In this document: positions 6,001-9,000 of the stretch, piece after piece
Layout: each line of letters opens with the position of its first letter
Numbering within the stretch: position 1 is the first letter of the stretch
Origin: a virus
Taxonomy: Duplodnaviria > Heunggongvirae > Uroviricota > Caudoviricetes
Length of the DNA: 29,493 nt
Virus record (IMG/VR): IMGVR_UViG_2537561932_000024
Location: 1 to 29,493 of that record
Direction: 5' to 3' (one strand)
Made by a program: the position numbers

Positions 6001-9000
6001 AAGCCCTGACTGTTCCCGCAGTTGGGGCTTCAACGTTTTTCCACTTCATTTTGAATTTGCTTAAGTAGCATATTTGTCTCGTCAAGCCTCTTGTTAATAC
6101 GGTCAAGGCTTTCTACTAAATCGTTATGTGCATGTGATACCTCGTAATTTGAGACTGATTTCTTTTCCTCTATCGTCTTTGTCAATCGTTCCCCTGATTG
6201 ATACATATTGATTAACGATGTAAAAATCACGAGCAAGCAAACTACAATGATTGCGCCAGACAAAAATTGTAAAGAACGATCAAGCAATGACACCTTCATA
6301 CCGTTATCCCCTCTCTCTTCAGGCTGTCCAGCACCCGCTTGTAAATCTCAGAGTTAACAGATCGCCCGTTCTCTTCAGCTACCTTGCGCACCAAATCCAA
6401 CACTTCTTTAGGCCACCGCAAATTGAACTGCGGCATTTTGCTCATTCCTTTCATGTTCACCTCACAATATAGGTCCACCGTGGACCTATTGAGAATATAG
6501 TAGAGTGCTTCTATCATGTCAATACACTAACTTGGAGTGATGGCATGGCTAGAGATGATCCGCACTTTAACTTCCGTATGCCTTTGGAAGTAAGAGAAAA
6601 ATTGAAATTAAGAGCCGAGGCTAACGGAAGGTCAATGAACTCTGAGTTATTACAAATCGTTCAGGATGCTCTCTCAAAGCCATCACCGATTGCAGGCTAT
6701 CGCAACGAAGCTGAACGCTTGGCTGATGAACATTCGGATATCGTAAAAAATATGGTATTCGAAACTTTAAAAAAACTTTATGGAAAAGAAAAGAATGAGT
6801 AATAAAGAGCTTGTTAAAAAATCAAATAACTGTGTCGATGCATATGCTGACTCATTTGGATACTCTTCATTTGGTGACGGTTCCCAGCGATTAGGTTCAA
6901 TTTCTTTTTTTCATAATGTAACTGAATGGCCTGTTGATGAAAGCGGTGATGTTGAAAACATAAAGTACAATATTGCCACCATTAGAATGCCTGAAGAATT
7001 GATGCTTAAATTGGCGGACTTCATTCGCGACCAACATTATAAGGCTAAAACAAACGAGTCGTAATCAATGATGAAACACGATTATTACGAAGCTCCAAAT
7101 CTAACTGAAAAGCTTGAACAAGCGGAAAAATCATCATCTTTGTACACAAATCCAATTTCTCAGTCATCAGGAATGTCTGGCATGAATATGGGCATGCTAC
7201 AATCAAGTGGTGGTGGAGCTGGGAGTAACAACATGCTTGAGGCTAGGGTTGCACGGTTAGAGGCAGATGTTGAAAACATTAAGACCAATCTATCTGAGGC
7301 AAGGTCTGACATCTCTCGTTTGCGTGATATCTCAGCTGATACATCCAGAGATGTTGCGGTGGTCCTGCAAAAAATAGTAGATGTAGACGAAAAATTATCA
7401 AAAAAACCGAGTAAGAGCGAAGTCCAGACATTGATCTCTACTGCAGTAAACAAGCAAATACTATGGACCATAGGGACTGGATTTGCTCTTTTAGGGATAG
7501 CTAAATATATATTTTAGCTCACCTCATCAGCTATCTTCTTGTTCCATTCACTCAGCGCCACTGCTAGGAAAACTAAGGAGGTTGGTGTGAAGAAAAAATT
7601 TTTAAACGTTGCAAAGTGCGCAATTTTTATATTTTTTATGACCTTTTACGGATTTAGTGCCGGAGAAGGTTTCGATCGTGATGCCAATGCATTCAGTTTC
7701 TTTTGTCTGTCTATAGTGGTCATAATTGTATGGGTGGAATTAAAGCAAACATTGTTTCATGTGCTAGGGAAATAACCATCCATGGCATTTAGTCACTGCT
7801 GTGTTGCCTCAGTGGCAAGCAGCGGTCTGATGGCATTTGCAGCGTTACTTAATGCTCTTTCATAGGCTGGCGTTCCTGCTTTGGTGTTTGCCAGACGTAA
7901 GAGCGCATTCCTGGCCATAGGGCTTTCATAACCCCTCGACATAAGGCCAATCCCTGTTTCCCCAGCCAATAGCGCGCCTCCGGTTTTTAGGTTACCAATA
8001 ACCCTTACCAAAGGCGCGAGTGTCATGCCAGTCTTCGTCACAACATTAGCCTCAGATGCTCTTTTGGTAGCATCGAGAATAGATAACATCCCCTCTATCT
8101 CTTTTCCGTTCTTCCCACCAAATACAGTTTTAAACACCTGACCATTTGCTTGTTTTTGCAGCTTGCCAAGCTCGGTCATCATTTTCTGAGGGCTGTCACC
8201 TACCTTGTCAGCTATTTTGCTGATATATGCCGCCCTTAGCATGTCTTTACCTTTTTGATCGAGTTTCCCGTACAATCGAGCTATATCTGACCCATATTGT
8301 CCATACACAATGGTATTTACAGCCTCGGGAGTTAAATCTCCTTTGTTTAGAACGTTTTTAAGGCGCGTTTGAGTTGCATGTGTTGCCATTTTTGCATAAT
8401 CAGCTTTTCCCGCTCTCCATGCTGAAGCATCTTTTGGGCTAAGTCCTTTCGCTATAGATTTACTAAGGCTATTGGTTAGCGAGTTGTAGACCCTGTTGAT
8501 CATTGTTTGCGACATTGATGGCAGAACTGTACGATCGCCTTTTACGTCAATGCGGAACTGAGTTCTCAGCTTATCAAGTAACTCAAAGGCATCATCTCCA
8601 TTTGTTATCTCCTGAATGGCATTCTTATAATCATTAAGCGCAGAAATGGTCTGGGTGTCAGAAACACCTTTAAGTTTCCCAAGTTCGTTTACTGCTCCGT
8701 CGATGGCTCTTATGGCGCCACTTGTATCAACTGGCTTTCCAACCATTCTTCCTGACAGGTTGTTTAGTTTTGACTTGGCTAACGATTTTTCCCTTGCAAC
8801 GCCTGACTTTAGACTATCAACGACTACAGATGGATCGTAGTCGCCGTATTTTTCGGTGAAGCGATTAACAAGCTTGGTTCTGGCATCCTGCTGTGCGGCT
8901 CTCATTGGTCCAGTACCAGCTATGACTCCTTCTGAGTAACCCTGCAGTTGATTGCCAAGTTTTGTTTTTGGAGGAACTACATCCGATGTCATAACTGGTA

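What the first reader, a model, noticed from the sequence alone, without database searches (positions are those of the whole stretch)
7068..7517. Tail-anchored coiled-coil protein with Ser/Gly/Met-rich low-complexity region
The architecture (disordered S/G/M-rich segment, heptad-like coiled coil, single C-terminal TM) resembles XhlA-type phage membrane proteins. Here it sits in the lysogenic-conversion region, not the lysis cassette, which is intact elsewhere in the window (S, R, Rz, Rz1). That placement suggests a role other than lysis, such as exclusion or membrane remodelling.
Basis: inference. Interest (0 to 1): 0.5.

Follow-up and report, generated by a model that had tools for sequence, protein, structure and literature searches.

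The report
Prophage membrane-anchor gene with variable partner
The ORF is a real, widespread but uncharacterised prophage gene for a tail-anchored coiled-coil membrane protein that always travels with a small variable partner gene just downstream of the prophage's lysogeny repressor, the slot where phages usually keep genes that protect the lysogen from other phages.

Summary
Window 7068..7517 (+) is a conserved gene for a 149-aa protein with a disordered Ser/Gly/Met-rich N-terminus, an unbroken heptad coiled coil of about 58 residues, and one C-terminal TM. The XhlA comparison holds only for architecture; sequence similarity is below threshold.

The gene is the second half of a two-gene cassette (partner 6795..7064, then this gene). 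The cassette is co-transcribed with mnt in the immI region of a P22-like prophage, where P22 has orf59a and sieA. It is not SieA.

In 37 of 53 distinct contexts the cassette lies directly downstream of a lysogeny repressor (cI-type or Mnt). Examples are HK544, the Stx1 prophage of O157:H7 Sakai, and 155 of 5,426 complete E. coli genomes.

- The partner comes in at least three unrelated types.
- Each partner type co-varies with the N-terminus of the membrane protein.
- The Gly-run, coil and TM stay constant, and mosaic joints fall at the Gly-run.
- The Gly-run encodes a conserved GGAGG 5-9 nt before a nearly invariant internal Met, so a nested short isoform is likely.

Best reading (about 0.5): a lysogen-expressed, two-component, membrane-acting anti-phage (exclusion or abortive-infection) module, analogous to RexAB. 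Function is untested.

The parts
6489..6517 (+). Pmnt-like sigma-70 promoter (TTGAGA-17-TATCAT), divergent from and overlapping a Pant-like promoter on the minus strand (6522..6494)
   Evidence: Consensus scan. The position corresponds to Pmnt/Pant of P22. No other promoter-like or terminator-like site lies on the + strand between here and 7775.
6545..6802 (+). mnt, the lysogeny-maintenance repressor of immI (Arc-like RHH plus Mnt C-terminal domain); first gene of the operon
   Evidence: Pfam Arc 1.4e-27 and Repressor_Mnt 3e-16. It is 84% identical in DNA to P22 mnt.
6795..7064 (+). Partner gene (89 aa from ATG 6795; the longest ORF starts at 6780). It overlaps the 3' end of mnt and ends 3 nt before the start of the membrane-protein gene. 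The product is soluble, with a beta-sheet and a C-terminal helix.
   Evidence: PHROG 4231 at 2.9e-52, matching residues 6-92. Homologues start at MSNKEL. AlphaFold2 pLDDT 78, strands 25-71 and helix 72-92. No fold match in the PDB or BFVD. The exact protein is on at least 1000 contigs.
7068..7517 (+). The gene in the finding: a 149-aa tail-anchored coiled-coil membrane protein (PHROG 3556)
7068..7208 (+). Variable N-terminal module (residues 1-47): short helix 12-24, then a Ser/Met-rich disordered stretch. It is specific to the partner type.
   Evidence: N-terminal cluster 3 occurs only with partner cluster 3 (6 of 6). No N-terminal cluster is shared between partner clusters. AlphaFold2.
7209..7232 (+). 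Gly-run linker (GGGAGSNN) containing the SD-like GGGAG at 7221..7225, 7 nt before ATG 7233
   Evidence: Sequence. Family-wide, an exact GGAGG lies at -17..-5 in 74% of 62 distinct sequences, against 32% (sd 5%) under synonymous Gly resampling.
7233..7235 (+). Nearly invariant internal Met56 codon: proposed second translation start giving a 94-aa coil+TM isoform
   Evidence: M56 is at least 90% conserved. Gene callers often annotate the 94-aa form (P0011, and P0215 on 359 contigs). Use as a start codon is an inference.
7227..7400 (+). Conserved heptad coiled coil (residues 54-111; MLEARVARLEADVENIKTNLSEAR...VVLQKIVDVDEKL)
7458..7514 (+). C-terminal transmembrane anchor (residues 131-149, ILWTIGTGFALLGIAKYIF) with a face of small residues (G136, A140, G143)
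   Evidence: It is the only hydrophobic segment and is helical in the model. W133 is invariant.
7587..7775 (+). Downstream 62-aa two-TM ORF (GTG start with AAGGAGG 7 nt upstream). It is probably on the same transcript but is an independent module.
   Evidence: PHROG 21338 at 3.9e-45. RBS. It is 99% identical in phages phiv205-1 and JEP4, where only this segment of the query matches.

Best explanation
The ORF encodes the membrane subunit of a two-gene, lysogen-expressed prophage cassette. What is shown and what is inferred are listed separately.

Shown:
- The gene is translationally coupled to a small soluble partner gene. Both lie in the mnt (immI maintenance repressor) operon of a P22-like prophage, in place of P22's orf59a and sieA.
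- Relatives across Enterobacterales and beyond keep the arrangement repressor, then partner, then membrane protein.
- The membrane protein is modular. A variable N-terminal peptide co-varies with the partner type. It is followed by a Gly-run, a conserved coiled coil of about 8 heptads and a C-terminal TM anchor.

Inferred:
- The protein is tail-anchored in the inner membrane, with the N-terminus and coil in the cytoplasm.
- The variable N-terminus binds the cytoplasmic partner.
- The coiled coil and the small-residue face of the TM drive oligomerisation.
- A second, shorter isoform (coil+TM only) is made from the conserved internal GGAGG-ATG.

Most likely function: an anti-phage module that protects the lysogen. 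In this model the polymorphic partner plus N-terminus acts as the specificity or sensor part, and the constant coil-TM acts as the membrane effector. The effector would either block DNA entry or early steps at the cytoplasmic face of the inner membrane, or permeabilise the membrane to abort infection. This is analogous to RexA/RexB in position and logic. The long and short isoforms could tune activity as a holin and antiholin do.
For: Operon and coupling in the window:
- mnt overlaps the partner gene, and the partner's stop is 3 nt from the ATG at 7068.
- There is one Pmnt-like promoter and no internal promoter-like or terminator-like site.

Synteny:
- Of 53 distinct contexts (tblastn E<1e-8), the gene upstream of the pair carries HTH_3 in 31 (18 of them with Peptidase_S24) and Arc/Mnt in 6.
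- Individual examples are HK544 gp42(cI)-gp41-gp40, VT1-Sakai cI-H0053, and Brenneria, Enterobacter and Klebsiella prophages.
- 151 complete E. coli genomes carry the window-type partner and N-terminus; in the one examined (E. coli C8) it lies downstream of a cI-like XRE repressor.
- The same module therefore occurs under both Mnt and cI control.

Modularity:
- Partner clusters and N-terminal clusters co-vary strictly.
- DNA similarity in the 151 E. coli genomes stops at query nt 461, about 5 nt into the Met56 codon.
- P0021 and P0038 have the same N-terminus on a different coil-TM.

Family size: 829 clusters at E<1e-3, all with the same layout.

Internal start: GGAGG enrichment (74% against 32%) and stronger SD pairing (-9.9 against -8.1 kcal/mol, Wilcoxon p about 1e-12) upstream of the conserved Met.

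Moron-like composition: the cassette is 36-40% GC against 49% for the virion genes.

Literature:
- The slot downstream of cI holds rexAB and bstA and is highly transcribed in lysogens (PMC8585504).
- The slot between genes 16 and 9 holds sieA in P22-like phages, and only 22 of 66 of those phages have sieA (PMC10883804).
Against: - No experiment bears on the function.
- There are no hits to any PADLOC defence model for the membrane protein or for four partner types.
- The co-variation of partner and N-terminus could simply reflect physical linkage of adjacent DNA.
- The GGAGG enrichment was measured on related, non-independent sequences and could partly reflect a codon-pair preference in Gly-runs.
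- Some family members lie outside repressor operons: next to a Bro-N-like regulator upstream of the tape-measure gene in Salmonella phage 29485, in baseplate-like clusters in Photorhabdus, and in a non-prophage context for P0123.
- The weak XhlA, holin and 'hemolysin' similarities point, if anywhere, towards lysis.
Confidence: 0.5

Rival explanations
1. Pure superinfection exclusion at the entry step. In this reading the tail-anchored protein, like SieA or HK97 gp15, interferes with the DNA-delivery conduit of incoming phages in the inner membrane, and the partner is only an accessory or stabiliser.
For: It occupies the sieA slot next to gene 16 in a phage that lacks sieA. [quoted passage not shown]
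Against: Most relatives are in lambdoid siphovirus prophages downstream of cI, not next to ejection-protein genes. Almost all of the protein is predicted cytoplasmic, with no periplasmic domain. A polymorphic cytoplasmic partner is not expected for a simple entry block.
Confidence: 0.15
2. Lysis accessory of the XhlA or holin-regulator type. It would act when the prophage is induced, for example by timing or assisting holin-mediated membrane lesions, rather than protecting the lysogen.
For: The architecture matches XhlA (coil plus C-terminal TM). There are weak hits to PHROG 'hemolysin' 937 (E=0.002) and Rz-like spanin (0.38). 21 of 122 distant relatives touch Pfam XhlA. A dual start is typical of holins.
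Against: The phage already has a complete holin/endolysin/Rz cassette about 17 kb away. The gene is never seen next to lysis genes in the contexts examined, and lies in repressor operons that are on in lysogens and are not late operons. XhlA similarity is below threshold for the window protein.
Confidence: 0.1
3. Toxin-antitoxin-like addiction or stabilisation module. The membrane protein would be a toxin and the upstream, translationally coupled partner its antitoxin, maintaining the prophage rather than defending against phages.
For: The gene order (small partner first, overlapping stop/start), the co-variation of the partner with the putative binding region and the mobility of the cassette between loci all resemble type II TA logic.
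Against: An internal start would produce a toxin lacking the antitoxin-binding part. No similarity to known TA families was found in Pfam, NCBIfam or PADLOC. TA and abortive infection are not mutually exclusive, so this rival overlaps the best explanation.
Confidence: 0.1
4. Host-physiology or lysogenic-conversion factor unrelated to phages. Examples would be a stress-tolerance or membrane/ribosome-associated tail-anchored protein in the manner of ElaB/YqjD, or a membrane tether that sequesters a regulator.
For: Tail-anchored coiled-coil architecture. Predicted expression in lysogens. The neighbouring region carries conversion genes (O-acetyltransferase 1492..2388).
Against: No DUF883 hit in Pfam at E<=1. 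The extreme polymorphism of the partner and N-terminus is more typical of conflict systems than of housekeeping-like functions.
Confidence: 0.1

Closest known systems
XhlA (Pfam PF10779; PBSX XhlA of the xhlA-xhlB-xlyA lysis cassette)
   Same: A small protein with a coiled coil followed by a single C-terminal TM. It is phage-encoded. Some distant relatives of this family give sub-threshold or near-threshold XhlA hits. A cI-adjacent '1-TM XhlA-domain' gene was noted in lambda-like Mannheimia phages (PMC4553209).
   Different: The window protein has no PF10779 hit at E<=1. The Mannheimia protein scores 24.1 bits against a cut-off of 34.7 and has its TM in the middle. The gene here is in a repressor operon and not a lysis cassette. 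It has a Gly-run, a variable N-terminus and an obligate partner gene.
Lambda RexA/RexB (abortive-infection pair in the cI operon)
   Same: Two genes co-transcribed with the lysogeny repressor. One product is predicted cytoplasmic and one is in the membrane. Both use the classical 'exclusion' slot of lambdoid prophages (PMC8585504).
   Different: There is no sequence similarity (no PADLOC or Pfam hit). RexB is polytopic (from literature knowledge), whereas this protein has a single tail anchor. The partner is 86-170 aa and comes in several unrelated folds.
P22 SieA (superinfection exclusion, types A-C)
   Same: Same chromosomal slot between genes 16 and 9, the same orientation as mnt, and an inner-membrane location.
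   Different: BLASTP E=0.31. SieA is polytopic with a conserved FxRYPxEAxxFNK motif (PMC10883804) that is absent here. SieA is a single gene with its own promoter.
Holin/antiholin dual-start genes (for example lambda S105/S107)
   Same: Nested in-frame products of a small membrane protein, made from two starts, are proposed here on the basis of a conserved internal SD plus Met.
   Different: The isoforms here would differ by about 55 residues rather than 2. The proteins are not homologous. The internal start is inferred and has not been shown.
BstA (prophage abortive-infection protein downstream of cI)
   Same: The same conserved position downstream of prophage repressors in diverse Gram-negative prophages (PMC8585504).
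   Different: BstA is a single large protein described as localising to sites of phage DNA replication (PMC8585504 abstract). It has no similarity to this cassette and no membrane anchor.

Membership tests
XhlA (PF10779) | Match to the Pfam XhlA model at or above the gathering score (34.7 bits) | tested here: not met
   There is no XhlA hit at E<=1 for the window protein. PHROG 'hemolysin' 937 scores E=0.002. Of 122 distant relatives, 21 hit at E<=0.01, best 1.8e-6.
XhlA (PF10779) | Coiled coil followed by a single C-terminal TM in a protein of about 90-150 aa | tested here: met
   helix 54-111 with a heptad register, TM 131-149.
XhlA (PF10779) | Gene located in the lysis cassette next to the holin and endolysin | tested here: not met
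   The lysis cassette is at 23739..24956. The gene is in the mnt operon, and relatives lie downstream of repressors.
SieA | Sequence similarity to SieA types A-C, including the FxRYPxEAxxFNK motif | tested here: not met
   BLASTP against P22 SieA gives E=0.31 over 23 residues. The motif, as described in PMC10883804, is not in the 149-aa sequence.
SieA | Polytopic inner-membrane protein | tested here: not met
   The protein has a single C-terminal hydrophobic segment.
SieA | Position between genes 16 and 9 of a P22-like prophage | tested here: met
RexAB-type two-component abortive infection | Two genes co-transcribed with the lysogeny repressor, one product soluble and one in the membrane | tested here: met
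   Gene order and coupling. Repressor upstream in 37 of 53 contexts. The partner has no TM.
RexAB-type two-component abortive infection | Homology to RexA/RexB or to any catalogued defence protein | tested here: not met
   The PADLOC scan of the membrane protein and four partner types gave nothing significant. Pfam and NCBIfam gave nothing specific.
RexAB-type two-component abortive infection | Phage-triggered loss of membrane potential, with protection at the population level | not testable with these tools
   This needs infection assays.
Dual-start holin-like genes | Two in-frame translation starts giving nested membrane proteins | tested here: inconclusive
   A conserved GGAGG lies 5-9 nt before a nearly invariant Met, enriched over synonymous resampling. 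No protein-level evidence is available.
PHROG 3556 (uncharacterised phage protein family) | Significant match to the family profile | tested here: met
   E=7.9e-59 over residues 1-149. Salmonella phage 29485 (E=1.5e-48) matches the same profile; HK544 gp40 is related by BLASTP (E=2e-15).

The most novel reading that the evidence does not exclude
This would be a large, previously unrecognised family of prophage-borne immunity modules found across Proteobacteria. A constant, holin-like, tail-anchored coiled-coil effector would be made as long and short isoforms from nested starts. It would be gated by interchangeable small sensor proteins (a beta+alpha type, a zinc-ribbon type and a beta-rich type) that dock onto a co-evolving N-terminal peptide. 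Infection by specific phages would release the effector to collapse the membrane.
Probability: 0.25. Interest if true: 0.75.

Novelty: new variant of a known kind. Interest (0 to 1): 0.55.

Why it matters
If the cassette is an exclusion or abortive-infection system, it adds a compact, very widespread two-gene module to the set of prophage defences. It is present in O157:H7 Stx1 prophages, in 155 of 5,426 complete E. coli genomes for one partner type alone, and in Salmonella, Klebsiella and Enterobacter. The profile search found 829 sequence clusters in all.

It would also explain what replaces sieA in the P22-like phages that lack it. Its swappable sensor and constant effector would make a tractable model for how specificity evolves in conflict systems.

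The conserved internal Shine-Dalgarno sequence hidden inside a glycine linker is a simple, testable example of a protein-coding feature that doubles as a translation signal.

Either way, the family is currently annotated only as 'hypothetical protein' or, misleadingly, as 'haemolysin XhlA'.

Tried and rejected
**Family and similarity searches**
- Pfam, NCBIfam and PADLOC scans of the membrane protein and partners gave only generic coiled-coil noise and no defence model.
- P22 SieA homology was rejected.
- hhalign of the family profile against the Mannheimia 'XhlA' protein aligned only the 22-residue ARVxxLExDVxxIK motif, with probability 15.6%. That protein is therefore not a straightforward family member, although its partner is the same PHROG 4293 as the zinc-ribbon partners.

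**Structure**
- The AlphaFold2 model of the membrane protein is just helices (pTM 0.25), so I did not run a fold search on it.
- The partner model (pLDDT 78) has no significant match in the PDB or BFVD.
- The afdb50 library was unavailable.

**Partners**
- I asked whether the partners are all homologous. The window partner shows no similarity to HK544 gp41 by BLASTP, and the partners fall into 4-5 clusters. Clusters 3 and 4 look alike by eye and possibly by one BFVD hit (TM 0.56, E 3.7e-3), but this is not established.

**Literature**
- Nothing was found for ECs2991/ECs2992/H0053, or for the protein accessions.
- HK544 appears in PMC11364771 only as a test phage.
- Brenes & Laub 2025 (PMID 40409266), which may have screened such prophage genes, could not be read.
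- The DefensePredictor main text gave no match that I could map to this cassette.

**Downstream ORF**
- The 62-aa ORF at 7587..7775 was considered as a third component and rejected as obligatory. In two other phages, only this segment of the query (the 62-aa ORF region) finds a match.
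Full report
**1. What is at the coordinates**

The window is a P22-like (Lederbergvirus) prophage read in reverse orientation.
- The minus strand carries gene 16 (7793..9658), gene 20 (9658..11007), gene 7 (11018..11710), tailspike (2604..4988) and ant (5089..5967).
- The lysis cassette is at 23739..24956.
- ORF 7068..7517 (+) encodes 149 aa.
- It is 100% identical to the 'hypothetical protein' SPUPF_00064 of Salmonella phage UPF_BP1, whose DNA matches window 6500..7800 at 98.9%.
- The exact protein is on 739 contigs in the public collection.

**2. It is a real gene with the described architecture**

- Full-length homologues of 48-77% identity exist in Klebsiella variicola, Brenneria and metagenomes.
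- Against four of them, nucleotide differences concentrate at third codon positions. This holds both in the first 55 codons (for example 17/12/32) and in the core (18/7/45). The low-complexity N-terminus is therefore translated.
- Residues 22-55 hold 10 Ser, 7 Gly, 4 Met and 4 Asn of 34.
- AlphaFold2 with a 29-sequence alignment predicts a short helix 12-24, disorder 25-53, one long helix 54-111, a break at KKPS, and a helix 116-148 that includes the only hydrophobic segment.
- Over residues 54-111 a single heptad register places LIVMF at 76% of a/d positions against 12% elsewhere.
- The hydrophobic segment ILWTIGTGFALLGIAKYIF runs to the last residue, so the protein is tail-anchored. I infer that the N-terminus and coil are cytoplasmic, because there is no signal peptide or other TM.

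**3. Operon context in the window**

- Downstream of a Pmnt-like promoter (6489..6517) come four genes:
  - mnt (6545..6802);
  - a partner gene (ATG 6795, overlapping mnt; stop at 7064);
  - the 149-aa gene (ATG 7068, 3 nt after the partner's stop);
  - a 62-aa two-TM ORF (GTG 7587, with AAGGAGG upstream).
- No other promoter-like or terminator-like site lies on this strand.
- In P22 the same interval holds mnt, orf59a, the terminator t_mnt, the promoter PsieA and sieA.
- The 149-aa protein is not SieA. BLASTP gives E=0.31. SieA proteins are polytopic with a conserved FxRYPxEAxxFNK motif, and only 22 of 66 P22-like phages carry sieA (PMC10883804).
- The cassette is AT-rich (36-40% GC) compared with the virion genes (49%), as is typical of morons.

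**4. The gene is half of a conserved two-gene cassette in lysogeny operons**

- tblastn and contig look-ups showed the same arrangement elsewhere:
  - in HK544 (cI gp42, then gp41, then gp40, upstream of PL);
  - in the Stx1 prophage VT1-Sakai (cI, an unannotated 93-aa ORF, then H0053 = ECs2992, followed by the annotated PRM terminator);
  - in Brenneria, Enterobacter and Klebsiella prophages.
- I fetched 139 further loci, called ORFs and kept 57 non-redundant family genes (tblastn E<1e-8).
- Nearly all have a same-strand upstream ORF of 82-172 aa whose stop overlaps or abuts the start. Gaps run from about -34 to +30 nt, commonly -8, -14 or -1.
- For 53 of these contexts I scanned the gene immediately upstream of the pair. 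It carries HTH_3 in 31 (18 with Peptidase_S24, 11 with Phage_CI_repr) and Arc/Mnt in 6. So 37 of 53 lie directly downstream of a lysogeny repressor on the same strand.
- In complete E. coli genomes, 155 of 5,426 carry the window-type partner. Four have the whole cassette at 99.6% identity or more. In the one of the 151 others that I examined, E. coli C8, the module sits downstream of a cI-like XRE repressor in a lambdoid prophage.
- The same module has therefore been placed under both the Mnt and the cI maintenance promoters.
- The literature identifies the slot downstream of cI as a hotspot for rexAB and bstA and as highly transcribed in lysogens (PMC8585504).
- A minority of family members lie elsewhere:
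  - next to a regulator-like gene upstream of the tape-measure gene in Salmonella phage 29485;
  - in baseplate-like clusters in Photorhabdus;
  - in a non-prophage-looking context for the distant member P0123, which still has an abutting Cys-rich 74-aa partner.

**5. Modularity**

- Partners fall into unrelated clusters:
  - about 130-170 aa, beta-rich (PHROG 5893);
  - about 110-137 aa with CxxC...CxxC (PHROG 4293);
  - 86-105 aa (the window type, PHROG 4231);
  - 93-97 aa (the HK544 type, PHROG 12039).
- N-terminal regions of the membrane protein fall into 17 clusters. No cluster is shared between partner types. The window type pairs 6 of 6 and the HK544 type 5 of 5.
- All members then have a Gly-run (consensus GGGGGD) followed by the conserved core M(L)EARVAKLEADVENIKTNLSEAR...DVAVILQK.VDIDEKLSKKPS and the TM.
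- Mosaic joints fall at the Gly-run.
  - In the 151 E. coli genomes, DNA similarity to the window ends at query nt 461, which is window 7240, about 5 nt past the Met56 ATG at 7233.
  - Proteins P0021 and P0038 combine the window-type N-terminus with a different coil-TM.
- In Mannheimia phage 535AP2 a PHROG 4293 zinc-ribbon partner follows cI and precedes a different membrane coiled-coil protein (PHROG 12015). That protein has its TM in the middle and keeps an ARLRQVEGDVREIKSN motif. It is the gene published as 'haemolysin XhlA' (PMC4553209), but it scores only 24.1 bits against a cut-off of 34.7 in current Pfam.

**6. Size of the family and relation to XhlA**

- A profile search of 1.84 billion representatives found 829 clusters at E<1e-3 and 72 at E<1e-10.
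- Almost all are proteins of 80-190 aa with the same layout: variable N-terminus, Gly-run, MEARVAKLESDVEHIK-type coil and C-terminal TM.
- Scanning 122 of them against Pfam gave FlaC_arch in 47, XhlA in 21 (best 1.8e-6) and many other coiled-coil families. NCBIfam gave nothing specific.
- The window protein itself has no XhlA hit. It matches PHROG 3556 (unknown function) at 7.9e-59 and the 'hemolysin' PHROG 937 at 0.002.
- XhlA is therefore an architectural analogue and possibly a very distant relative. Membership is not supported.

**7. A conserved internal ribosome-binding site**

- Met56, the first residue of the conserved core, is at least 90% conserved. It always lies 1-3 codons after the Gly-run.
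- In the window the sequence is GGTGGTGGAGCTGGGAGTAACAACATG, with GGGAG 7 nt before the ATG.
- Across 74 family genes, GGA makes up 31% of the Gly codons in the ten codons before this Met, against 18% locally.
- Predicted SD/anti-SD pairing is -9.9 kcal/mol, against -8.1 when Gly codons are resampled synonymously (Wilcoxon p about 1e-12).
- An exact GGAGG lies at -17..-5 in 74% of 62 distinct sequences. Resampling gives 32% (sd 5%), with a maximum of 53% in 500 trials.
- In the HK544 lineage only two glycines remain, and they are encoded GGA GGC, giving gatgatGGAGGcgacgacATG.
- The sequences are related, so these statistics overstate independence. Even so, the pattern supports a nested start that would yield a 94-aa coil+TM product besides the full-length protein. 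Gene callers frequently annotate that short form.

**8. Mechanism**

- Shown: operon membership, the conserved order repressor, partner, membrane protein, modular co-variation, a tail-anchored coiled-coil architecture, and a conserved internal SD plus Met.
- Inferred: cytoplasmic orientation, docking of the partner onto the variable N-terminus, oligomerisation through the coil and the small-residue TM face, two isoforms, and expression in lysogens.
- The most economical function is protection of the lysogen against other phages. A polymorphic specificity part (partner plus N-terminus) would be coupled to a constant membrane effector. The effector would work either by blocking an early step at the inner membrane or by RexAB-like, holin-like membrane permeabilisation.
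- I put this at about 0.5.
- Four rivals are not excluded: a pure entry block, a lysis accessory, a TA-like addiction module, and a host-physiology factor.
- No known defence model matches, and no experimental literature on these genes was found.

**9. Verdict**

- The feature is an uncharacterised but very widespread prophage cassette in the classical exclusion slot. This is a new variant of a known kind and is worth a direct phage-challenge experiment.

Noticed in passing
window 7587..7775 (+): A 62-aa ORF with two hydrophobic segments, a GTG start and a strong AAGGAGG RBS (PHROG 21338). The DNA is 99% identical in Escherichia phages phiv205-1 and JEP4, where only this segment of the query matches. 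It therefore looks like a separate small membrane-protein moron next to gene 16.
   Followed up: partly
window 6030..6299 (-): An 89-aa ORF (PHROG 27312, unknown function) lies between arc and ant. It has an N-terminal hydrophobic segment followed by a coiled-coil-like tail. P22 has no gene here, only the sar RNA region. This would be a second membrane-anchored coil protein in the immI region, this one in the Pant operon.
   Followed up: no
window 6948..6961 and 7266..7279: A 14-nt direct repeat GATGTTGAAAACAT encodes DVENI in both the partner (GDVENIKYNIA) and the membrane protein (ADVENIKTNLS). A natural E. coli protein, P0012 (134 aa), is an in-frame fusion of the two genes exactly at this repeat. 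I did not resolve whether the shared peptide is chance, mimicry or a recombination hotspot.
   Followed up: partly
L158 (Mannheimia phage vB_MhS_535AP2, KP137433) 810..2390: The order is cI, then a 126-aa CxxC...CxxC partner (PHROG 4293), then a 161-aa membrane protein with its TM in the middle and a C-terminal coil (PHROG 12015). It was published as 'haemolysin XhlA' but is below the Pfam threshold. The same partner family is paired with a differently built membrane protein.
   Followed up: partly
L036, L042, L043, L048, L050 (Photorhabdus genomes), about 5436..8800: Distant family members with an overlapping 143-aa partner sit inside clusters of 365/119/143/FAM/252/117/394-aa genes. By gene sizes these look like myovirus or tailocin baseplate operons, which would be a late-gene context rather than a repressor operon.
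   Followed up: no
L105, L106, L111, L114, L116, L122, L079, L103: In many enterobacterial loci the order short HTH repressor, partner, membrane protein is followed within about 1 kb by a 1000-1130-aa ORF and a 360-370-aa ORF on the same strand. I did not annotate these. They may be a further defence or early-region module.
   Followed up: no
'cluster 1' of the 90%-identity protein collection: The 89-aa partner and the 149-aa membrane protein are filed in the same sequence cluster. This may be because fusion proteins such as P0012 bridge them (not checked). Cluster-based counts for either protein may therefore be mixed.
   Followed up: no
window 1492..2388 (+) and 2604..4988 (-): An O-acetyltransferase-like gene (PHROG 3333) lies beside a tailspike whose receptor-binding part matches only PHROG 34132 (unknown function). 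The tailspike has a standard P22-type N-terminal head-binding domain. Together they suggest a serotype-conversion and receptor pairing.
   Followed up: no
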